From assembly GCA_963665845.2 (NCBI GenBank), contig OY762492.1:3360001-3424000 (forward strand): DNA of 64,000 nucleotides. Direction: 5' to 3'. Made by a program: the position numbers and the translations under genes. This DNA is from Candidatus Poribacteria bacterium. Its GTDB lineage: Bacteria > Poribacteria > WGA-4E > GCA-2687025. Below are positions 48,989 to 50,116 of this stretch, piece after piece; the stretch's first letter is position 1; each line of letters opens with the position of its first letter. Below the pieces are notes generated by a model that saw nothing but the letters and a program-made list of their open reading frames with translations, did not search any database and was not told the origin of the DNA.

Positions 48989-50116
48989 TCAGGCGCGTTC
49001 CAGTTCCGTTTTGACAAGCGCCATATGCATCTTTCCCTCCCTGTCCATGCGCGTTCGGGCGTTGGCCGGGGCGTCCAGATCCATCATGAGCTGACTTCCG
49101 TCGATCCAGGTAACGCGCCGTTGAAACGCGCTGGAGGGCGGACCTTCCAGGGGGTGCGTCGGCATGACGCGGACGCCGTTGACCTCCGAAAAAACGCCCA
49201 GCTCAAACTCCGCCTCGATCAGCGCCGACGCCGCCTCCTCGCCCAGCGCGACAATCACCCGCGGCTGAATGCGCTCAATCTGCCGAAGCAGATACGGACG
49301 GCAACGCTCCGTCTCCCGCCAAAACGCGCGCCCGTCTGTCGACAAACGGCATTTTAAAAGGTATGCTACATACACATCCTCTCGGCGCAGGTCCGCCGCT
49401 GCGATCAGGCTTTCCAAGCGCGTTTTCGGCTCCGGCATCTGATACGGCTTCCCTTTTCGATCCTCCGCTCCGCCTGGCGCCAGCCCAATCAGCATGAGGT
49501 CGGCGTCCGGCTTGCCTTCTCCAAAAACGACATGCTTTCGTTCAAGATGAAGCCGGCAGCGCCGGCAGCCGCTCGCCTCTTCAGCCAGCGCGGACAGCTC
49601 CATGCCGGCAAACGAAATCTCGGCGTCGAGAGTAAAGGCGGAATCGCGCAGCGGAAAGGAGCGGTTTCGGAACGATTCAACATCGCCCTTGGCGTCCGCC
49701 GCGCCGATCATGCCTAAAGCCTGCGCGATCCATGTTAAATAGGAGCGCGCCAGCTCTTTGTCCATATCGCTGTCGCCGGGGTGGGCGGCGGCGTTTCGCG
49801 CCGAGCGGATCAGATAGGTCAAGCTTTGGAACATGCGGTCGGTTCCGAAATCGTTCTCAAACGCCTCGCGCCAGTAGGTTCGGACAATGTCAGGAAAGTC
49901 GCCGATGTCGAGCGCGGCGCCGACATTTCCGCCGTTTTCCAGCAGCGTTCGGTTGAATTGGCTCGCGCGGTCTCGATGCATCGCGTCGCTGACGAGCGTT
50001 TGCAGGTTGCCGCGCCCCTGGATTCGCTTCAGCGCTTTTGGAATAAAGACGCGCATCTCGTCTCGGTACACAGTTAGAGCGTCGTTTAGAACGGCGATGT
50101 TGGGCGTTTGCGGCAT
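48989..50116 (-). CDS. Swt1-like HEPN domain fused to family-4 uracil-DNA glycosylase-like domain
   Basis: N-terminal [18 protein letters not shown]...[10 protein letters not shown] (RxxxxH); C-terminal CRRCRL...[45 protein letters not shown] at 50116 with GGAG RBS. Confidence 0.8.

What the first reader, a model, noticed from the sequence alone, without database searches (positions are those of the whole stretch)
48989..50116. HEPN (Swt1-like) RNase domain fused to an altered Fe-S uracil-DNA glycosylase, abutting priA
Seen: the N-terminal ~150 aa helical domain carries R-N-A-A-A-H, and the C-terminal domain keeps four Cys (CRRC, KCR, ERC) plus the VVFGEG and THP motifs. Its stop lies 1 bp before the inferred priA start. 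Established: RxxxxH is the HEPN RNase motif used by toxins and abortive-infection effectors, and family-4 UDGs have GE(A/G)PG, PFVGxAG and NxxKCRP. Here these read GLAPG, PYQMPEP and YLLKCRL, so the conserved Glu of motif A and the uracil-contacting Asn appear replaced. Inference: the UDG fold may act as a sensor of modified or damaged DNA, or of a phage UDG inhibitor, that controls an RNase; this would be a candidate defence or damage checkpoint co-expressed with replication restart.
Basis: partly seen in the sequence, partly recalled or inferred. Interest (0 to 1): 0.82.

Follow-up and report, generated by a model that had tools for sequence, protein, structure and literature searches.

The report
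RNase domain fused to disabled glycosylase
In one genus of Poribacteria, a duplicated DNA-repair enzyme has lost key uracil-recognising residues and is fused to an RNA-cutting (HEPN-type) domain, likely forming a dormant RNase switched on by abnormal DNA, while its position next to priA is inherited gene order.

Summary
The fusion is real: a minus-strand 375-aa gene (50116 to 48989) ending 1 nt before priA. Its N-terminal domain is a Swt1-like HEPN with intact R107-N-x3-H112. Its C-terminal domain is a family-4 UDG copy that keeps the four Fe-S cysteines but has replaced E41, N80, N89 and probably catalytic H155. Both domains are under purifying selection (dN/dS 0.23 and 0.21; priA 0.21). It was found in 2 of 176 Poribacteria genomes, and in 5 clusters among 1.84 billion representative proteins. 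The priA link is not special: ordinary udg lies directly upstream of priA in 19 of 28 relatives. This genus split that block at udg and keeps an intact copy elsewhere. The HEPN resembles those of DUF499 BREX-related systems, and across the phylum it is fused to many nucleic-acid-binding partners. Best reading (0.40): a dormant dimer-activated RNase whose dead UDG is a non-catalytic DNA sensor. RNase activity, trigger and defence role are untested. One homologue cluster lacks the HEPN His, and the locus is not a defence island. No description of the fusion turned up in my searches. New variant of a known kind; interest 0.5.

The parts
48989..50116 (-). Gene for the 375-aa HEPN-degenerate UDG4 fusion protein
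   Evidence: identical contigs; dN/dS 0.23
49652..50116 (-). Swt1-like HEPN domain (aa 1-155), predicted all-helical
   Evidence: Pfam PF18731; Atlas top hits Swt1-like HEPN at 0.94; AF2 model pLDDT 92; Foldseek top hit yeast Swt1 C-terminal domain, weak
49781..49798 (-). HEPN catalytic-type motif R107-N-A-A-A-H112
   Evidence: sequence; R107 and H112 invariant in 37 of 37 aligned HEPN domains
49154..49600 (-). Degenerate family-4 UDG domain (aa 173-321): Cys184/187/256/272 kept; E41 to L212, N80 to Y252, N89 to D261; H155 probably to P322
49472..49486 (-). Altered motif A, GLAPG (aa 211-215)
   Evidence: sequence
48992..49153 (-). C-terminal tail (aa 322-375): replaced motif B, an insertion of about 30 aa, and a predicted terminal helix; 26 of 53 residues identical in the distant homologue P0006
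50121..50157 (-). Candidate extended -10 element (50157-50149) and Shine-Dalgarno-like GGAGAG (50126-50121), both kept in G001; seen by eye, not listed by the promoter scan
   Evidence: sequence; one search found no sigma-70 site here
46762..48987 (-). priA (741 aa), downstream gene; the adjacency is inherited from the ancestral udg-priA order

Best explanation
The gene fuses a Swt1-like HEPN domain with an intact RxxxxH motif to a duplicated family-4 uracil-DNA glycosylase that has lost key uracil-pocket residues, and it likely works as a dormant RNase that is switched on when the disabled glycosylase domain binds abnormal DNA. Shown: architecture, residue changes, selection on both domains, an intact udg elsewhere, and the ancestral udg-priA order. 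Inferred origin: udg was duplicated in this genus, one copy was joined to a HEPN related to the N-terminus of DUF499 ATPases, and the block was split, leaving the intact copy with ispG and the fused copy ahead of priA. Inferred mechanism: the Fe-S-stabilised fold no longer excises uracil. Tyr252 would fill the base pocket, and the domain would instead bind a non-uracil DNA feature (abasic, gapped or single-stranded DNA) through its remodelled tail. Clustering on such DNA would dimerise the HEPN domains and cut host RNA, giving dormancy or abortive infection. Dimerisation, the trigger and the defence role are untested.
For: R107/H112 are invariant in 37 of 37 aligned HEPNs. RNxxxH is present in all 13 of the 14 close cluster members that reach the motif, and an RxxxxH is present in 4 of 5 fusion clusters. 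E41, N80 and N89 are kept in 34, 35 and 35 of 35 canonical UDGs and in 0 of 9 fusion rows, while the four Cys are kept in 44 of 44. In the Thermus enzyme E41Q lowers k2/Km about 900-fold, N80A about 40-fold, N89A about 7-fold and H155S over 2000-fold (PMC5387724 Table 1). dN/dS between G000 and G001: HEPN 0.23 (CI 0.13-0.40), dead UDG 0.21 (0.10-0.42), priA 0.21. An intact udg exists at C1:3106153-3106917. The fusion recurs: G001 has a second, 3xHEPN form directly behind its intact udg, and P0088 has a HEPN that groups with this genus's DUF499-HEPNs (SH-aLRT 100). Other partners of this HEPN are largely nucleic-acid-binding or restriction-associated modules (Mrr_N, DUF4268, RecJ C-terminal, DprA winged helix, S1, NucS-like). 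Published work predicts the DUF499-fused HEPN to be an active, last-resort RNase (PMC3710099, PMC12839542), and the HEPN protein ApeA is activated by DNA-breakdown products (abstract).
Against: No activity was measured. P0006 (46% identity, same architecture and tail) lacks the HEPN His, and repeats 2 and 3 of the 3xHEPN forms lack the motif, so the RNase motif is dispensable in some members. The canonical DNA-contacting stretches (GRAG, motif B) are also replaced, so DNA binding is not assured. The locus is a housekeeping block, not a defence island, and PADLOC gives only a marginal hit (E 0.022); 2 of 37 related HEPNs hit any PADLOC model at E 0.001. The gene appears to head the priA transcript, which implies steady expression of a potentially toxic enzyme. 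The HEPN scores just below Pfam's cut-off, and the best Foldseek match is weak (E 0.54) and is the yeast Swt1 domain, which is described as probably inactive. dN/dS rests on one genome pair.
Confidence: 0.4

Rival explanations
1. The protein is a non-toxic nucleic-acid-binding or scaffold protein: the HEPN serves as a dimerisation or RNA-binding module and the dead UDG as a structural or DNA-binding domain, with little or no RNase output.
For: P0006 and the inner repeats of the 3xHEPN forms have lost the motif but remain full length. Eukaryotic Swt1 HEPN is described as probably inactive. The gene sits in a housekeeping block ahead of priA.
Against: RNxxxH is kept in all 13 close cluster members that reach it, across 81-92% overall identity, and every 3xHEPN form keeps one intact motif.
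Confidence: 0.25
2. The fusion is a by-product of frequent HEPN shuffling and is kept mainly because it carries the promoter and translational coupling for priA; the protein itself does little.
For: The HEPN matches 108 of 176 genomes on ORFs of very mixed length, and some non-DUF499 copies are nearly identical to DUF499 copies. The fusion is confined to 2 of 176 genomes, and P0005 appears frameshifted.
Against: dN/dS is about 0.2 in both domains with intervals below 0.42. The tail is 26 of 53 identical in P0006. A second fusion persists in G001 away from priA.
Confidence: 0.13
3. The UDG domain is an active glycosylase of changed specificity (family-5-like or Brig-like) that attacks modified phage bases, with the HEPN as a back-up effector.
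For: GLAP matches the family-5 motif A, GLAPA. E47 is kept and F54 is changed to the tolerated Tyr. The HMMER alignment can keep His321 as H155 with a one-residue gap. UDG-fold anti-phage glycosylases exist. P0088 keeps motif B.
Against: The domain is family 4 by sequence (E 3e-26 against 0.035 for the family-5 structure). Tyr at N80 would shrink the pocket, whereas Brig1's pocket is predicted to be larger. Gap-free alignment with P0088 (PTHHP) puts variable residues (P, S, A, F, V) at the catalytic His.
Confidence: 0.12
4. The dead UDG is an integrated decoy that binds a phage protein aimed at the host's family-4 UDG and thereby activates the HEPN RNase.
For: It is a conserved, fold-intact copy of a host enzyme. 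No family-1 Ung was seen among the genome's 3 PF03167 matches (read from motifs), so UDG4 would be the target of any uracil-DNA phage. Other HEPN partners are also pieces of housekeeping proteins.
Against: Ugi is described as specific for family 1. Known UDG inhibitors are DNA mimics (recalled) and would bind the DNA-binding face, which is the part that has diverged. The domain is only 46% identical to the host enzyme.
Confidence: 0.1

Closest known systems
HEPN-fused DUF499 ATPase of type-1 BREX-related (BR/Hma) systems (Ava_2192 group of the Swt1-like HEPN family; PMC3710099, PMC12839542)
   Same: Same N-terminal Swt1-like HEPN with RNxxxH; 34% identical to the genome's own DUF499-fused copy and 41% to that of G001.
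   Different: The ATPase is replaced by a dead UDG4, and no ATPase, methyltransferase or helicase of a BR system flanks the gene.
Family-4 UDG (Thermus thermophilus UDGa, PDB 1UI0)
   Same: Best solved match, E 3e-26; four Fe-S Cys, E47 and an aromatic residue at F54 kept.
   Different: E41, N80, N89 and motif B replaced; below all three NCBIfam UDG cut-offs; insertion of about 30 aa; fused to HEPN.
ApeA and other ligand-gated HEPN abortive-infection RNases (10.64898/2026.01.26.701840, abstract only)
   Same: Proposed working principle: a HEPN RNase activated by a product of DNA damage.
   Different: Different HEPN family and sensor; activity is shown for ApeA and only inferred here.
Brig1/Brig2 anti-phage glycosylases (PMC11078745; 10.1101/2025.10.29.685425)
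   Same: UDG fold repurposed away from uracil repair.
   Different: They are active glycosylases, and neither main text mentions HEPN; this domain is a close copy of a housekeeping UDG4 with an apparently blocked pocket.
UdgX
   Same: Family-4-like Fe-S fold with altered function.
   Different: UdgX keeps GEQPG and has the KRRIH loop; both are absent here.

Membership tests
Swt1-like HEPN (PF18731) | Pfam score at or above 27.5 bits | tested here: inconclusive
   24.2 bits whole protein, 26.9 domain alone, 27.2 for the orthologue P0003; 37 of 37 aligned relatives match at E 0.001 or better, and fusion relatives reach 29.6-48.7 bits
Swt1-like HEPN (PF18731) | All-alpha HEPN fold | tested here: met
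   AF2 model pLDDT 92, helices only; Foldseek rank 1 is the yeast Swt1 C-terminal domain, prob 0.66, E 0.54, weak; Atlas features 0.94
Swt1-like HEPN (PF18731) | Rx4-6H motif | tested here: met
   R107-N-A-A-A-H112
Swt1-like HEPN (PF18731) | Homodimer with a composite active site (recalled as general for HEPN RNases) | not tested
Swt1-like HEPN (PF18731) | RNase activity | not testable with these tools
   needs a biochemical assay
Family-4 UDG | Four Cys for the 4Fe-4S cluster | tested here: met
   C184, C187, C256, C272
Family-4 UDG | Motif A GE(A/G)PG | tested here: not met
   GLAPG; Glu in 34 of 35 canonical rows and 0 of 9 fusion rows
Family-4 UDG | Uracil-binding N80 and water-positioning N89 | tested here: not met
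   Y252 and D261
Family-4 UDG | Motif B with catalytic His (HPA...) | tested here: inconclusive
   PTHPLEG: His is at the -1 position in the gap-free alignment and at the catalytic position if a one-residue gap is allowed; the rest of motif B is lost
Family-4 UDG | NCBIfam cut-off (TIGR00758) | tested here: not met
   104.5 bits against 125.3
Family-5 UDG (UdgB) | Motif A GLAPA, motif B HPSPLN and overall family-5 similarity | tested here: not met
   GLAP shared, motif B absent; E 0.035 to 2D3Y against 3e-26 to family 4
UdgX | GEQPG and KRRIH loop | tested here: not met
   absent from the sequence; TIGR03914 78.8 bits against 190
Type-1 BREX-related (DUF499) system | DUF499 ATPase, methyltransferase and helicase in the locus | tested here: not met
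   neighbours are priA, a HAD hydrolase and unknown genes; the genome's HEPN-bearing 1133-aa ATPase-like gene is at C1:2610605
Brig1/Brig2 glycosylases | Sequence or structural membership and excision of modified bases | not tested
   no Brig sequence was compared; only paper passages were read

The most novel reading that the evidence does not exclude
Poribacteria use the BR-system HEPN as an exchangeable RNase warhead that is repeatedly grafted onto duplicated pieces of housekeeping proteins (UDG4, RecJ C-terminus, DprA winged helix, ribosomal S1 repeats), which decay into pseudoenzyme sensors or decoys. This gene would be one of a graded series, from near-intact (P0088) to fully remodelled (3xHEPN forms), that shows a repair enzyme turning into an immune sensor, a bacterial counterpart of integrated decoys.
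Probability: 0.2. Interest if true: 0.8.

Novelty: new variant of a known kind. Interest (0 to 1): 0.5.

Why it matters
If true, it shows how a new immune sensor is made from a repair enzyme, with intermediates still on record: five fusion clusters with stepwise loss of the uracil pocket. It would also give a small single-protein test of whether the Swt1-like HEPN of BREX-related systems is an RNase at all, which the papers I read only predict. The reach is narrow: one genus of an uncultured phylum, with no evidence yet of a phenotype.

Tried and rejected
Replication-restart checkpoint: rejected, since udg-priA is ancestral. Assembly artefact or pseudogene: rejected. Ugi sensor: judged unlikely. 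Family-5 or UdgX membership: rejected. The full-length AF2 model from a 6-row alignment was unusable (pLDDT 46.6). A 96-row mixed alignment (A3) misaligned the UDG fragments and was not used. Complex prediction of a HEPN dimer was not available, and VIA-align fold searches did not run, so there is no verdict on dimerisation and no second fold check. A profile search of the HEPN alignment against PDB sequences gave nothing significant. The Atlas gave no usable hit for the whole protein. No RNA holder was listed. The metagenome scan found no fusion among its 5 loci, and the genome scan found 2 fusion loci among 27. The UDG tree did not place the fusions beside this genus's udg; the AU test did not reject that grouping either (p 0.195), so the donor is suggested only by best BLAST scores with small margins and by synteny. 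The QLMMDL stretch in the tail resembles a sliding-clamp motif (recalled consensus) but is changed in P0006 and absent from the other three clusters; not pursued. Three look-ups in earlier scan findings returned nothing.

Full report
Observation. All quoted motifs are present. Pfam gives UDG (E 5.6e-21) and HEPN_Swt1 (E 4.4e-5, just under the cut-off). One contig in each of 4 runs covers the gene without differences (one study, possibly the source). Upstream lie an extended -10-like element and a Shine-Dalgarno-like site, both kept in G001 (seen by eye; the scan did not list them). Record titles and a source name of close homologues identify the lineage as Candidatus Poribacteria.

HEPN domain. 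All 37 aligned HEPN domains from Poribacteria match PF18731, with R107 and H112 invariant; these were selected by similarity to the query. The model is confident and all-helical (pLDDT 92). The top Foldseek hit is the yeast Swt1 C-terminal domain, but weak (E 0.54). The Atlas's best three hits are Swt1-like HEPN clusters. The genome has one other copy, at the N-terminus of a 1133-aa protein followed by a methyltransferase-like gene (the methyltransferase label is from recalled motifs). Its G001 counterpart carries DUF499. This is the architecture described for type-1 BREX-related systems, where the HEPN is predicted, not shown, to be a suicide RNase (PMC3710099 and PMC12839542, passages).

UDG domain. 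It is family 4 by sequence (E 3e-26 to 1UI0; 0.035 to the family-5 structure) and below the NCBIfam cut-offs. Mapped on the Thermus enzyme, E41 is L212, N80 is Y252 and N89 is D261; E47 is kept and F54 is Tyr. These three residues are kept in 34-35 of 35 canonical rows and 0 of 9 fusion rows, whereas the four Cys are kept in all 44. Measured losses for single mutants are about 900-fold (E41Q), 40-fold (N80A) and 7-fold (N89A) (PMC5387724, passages and Table 1). The His of 'THP' is probably not the catalytic one: canonical enzymes read PTYHP, P0088 reads PTHHP, and the other fusions read PTHPL, PTHSL, PTHAL, PTHFP or PTHVP. A gapped alignment keeps it, so this point is open. GLAP is also the family-5 motif (PMC4787834, PMC5449639, passages), which is why altered activity stays a rival. 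Loss of uracil excision is inferred, not measured. An intact family-4 udg (46% identical) lies elsewhere in the genome.

Distribution. A profile of the fusion found full-length matches in 2 of 176 Poribacteria genomes, G000 and G001 of one genus (other genomes are 61-99% complete). Among 1.84 billion representatives, the five top hits are fusions: this class (P0003), P0006, P0086, P0087 and P0088; the next 145 listed match the UDG half only or nearly so. P0086, P0087 and the G001 protein in L022 have three HEPN repeats, of which only the first keeps RxxxxH. P0006 has lost the His. P0088 keeps motif B, and its HEPN groups with this genus's DUF499-HEPNs, which suggests a younger or separate fusion (long-branch warnings apply). 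I have no genomic context for P0006, P0086, P0087 or P0088.

Selection. Between G000 and G001, dN/dS is 0.23 for the HEPN, 0.21 for the dead UDG and 0.21 for the tail (wide interval, 0.03-0.63), against 0.21 for priA and 0.12 for the canonical UDG core (one pair, Nei-Gojobori). The protein is therefore maintained.

The priA link. Of 28 relatives' priA loci, 19 show a family-4 udg directly upstream; 2 of the 9 misses do not reach the priA start and one has only 518 bases upstream. In G005 and G007 the order is rseP-ispG-udg-priA-HAD, and in G002 ispG-udg-priA-HAD. In this genus the block is split at udg: rseP-ispG-udg (intact) in one place and HEPN-dead udg-priA in another, and G001 has the 3xHEPN fusion directly behind its intact udg. 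The adjacency is thus inherited and carries no evidence for a replication-restart checkpoint. Duplication within the genus is suggested by synteny and best BLAST scores. The tree neither shows nor rejects it.

A shuffled module. The HEPN profile matches 108 of 176 genomes, often several times, on ORFs from about 150 to 1200 codons. I scanned 26 of the 40 fetched non-window ORFs plus 8 earlier ones. Pfam partners were DUF499, DUF4268, Mrr_N, RecJ C-terminal, Helicase_C, DprA winged helix, S1 and NucS-like/DUF7669, and several had no named partner. This makes the UDG fusion one case of a wider habit, which lowers its surprise as a single gene and raises the interest of the pattern.

Mechanism. 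I favour a dormant RNase gated by a non-catalytic DNA-binding domain (0.40). The basis is the retained catalytic motif, the selective loss of pocket residues with an intact fold, recurrence of the fusion, the nature of the other partners, and the precedent of ligand-gated HEPN RNases such as ApeA (abstract and outline only). Against it: the His is lost in P0006, canonical DNA-contact loops are replaced, the context is housekeeping, PADLOC hits are marginal, and nothing was measured. Rivals are a non-toxic binding or scaffold protein (0.25), a near-neutral chimaera (0.13), an altered glycosylase (0.12) and a protein decoy (0.10).

Novelty. In searches (listings), no title or abstract start described a HEPN-UDG fusion. 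'Glycosylase' does not occur in the main text of PMC3710099 or PMC12839542, and HEPN does not occur in PMC11078745 or 10.1101/2025.10.29.685425; PMC13581612 mentions both terms in unrelated places. The supplement held for PMC3710099 is only 4,325 characters and had no hit, and that of PMC12839542 could not be read, so architecture tables there may list such a fusion. Subscription journals were not searched. Verdict: a real, selected, genus-restricted new domain combination of known parts; new variant of a known kind; interest 0.5.

Noticed in passing
window 50196-50734; genome-wide: Dense REP-like repeats upstream of the gene, including 41-nt tandem copies and inverted pairs; the pattern ATTCCC-N8-GGGAAT occurs 866 times on contig C1. 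It resembles the neisserial dRS3 repeat (recalled).
   Followed up: partly
L022:5374-7548 (G001:C23): Protein of about 700 aa with three HEPN repeats (only the first with RxxxxH) and a dead UDG, directly downstream of the intact udg and upstream of a dCTP deaminase-like gene; G000 has a different gene on the opposite strand at this position.
   Followed up: partly
protein P0088: HEPN-UDG fusion with a near-canonical UDG (GLAPG, Asp at N80, intact motif B): the best candidate for an altered but active glycosylase, or an early intermediate.
   Followed up: partly
L029:3515-4984, L027:3809-5932, L131, L136, L157:1360-2646, L164:37-2619: The same HEPN fused to S1 repeats (40% identical to an S1-repeat gene of G000), RecJ C-terminal or helicase remnants, and a DprA winged helix.
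   Followed up: partly
window 50770-51708 (-): 312-aa gene upstream on the same strand, conserved in G001 (dN/dS 0.15), with no significant Pfam, NCBIfam or PHROG match; it looks by eye like a single-strand annealing protein (recalled, untested).
   Followed up: partly
window 42871-46754: Block between priA and the HAD gene that is absent at this place in G001: a 399-aa gene with a weak M15-peptidase/endolysin match and three tandem paralogous genes with a predicted N-terminal membrane anchor.
   Followed up: no
window 52915-55587 (+): Two tandem paralogous Na+/Pi-cotransporter-like genes separated by repeat-like DNA (only the first was scanned).
   Followed up: no
L025:2235-3692 (G011:C217): Canonical-motif UDG4 fused behind a 2-phosphosulpholactate phosphatase domain and ending in QLTLF, a clamp-binding-like motif (recalled).
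   Followed up: no
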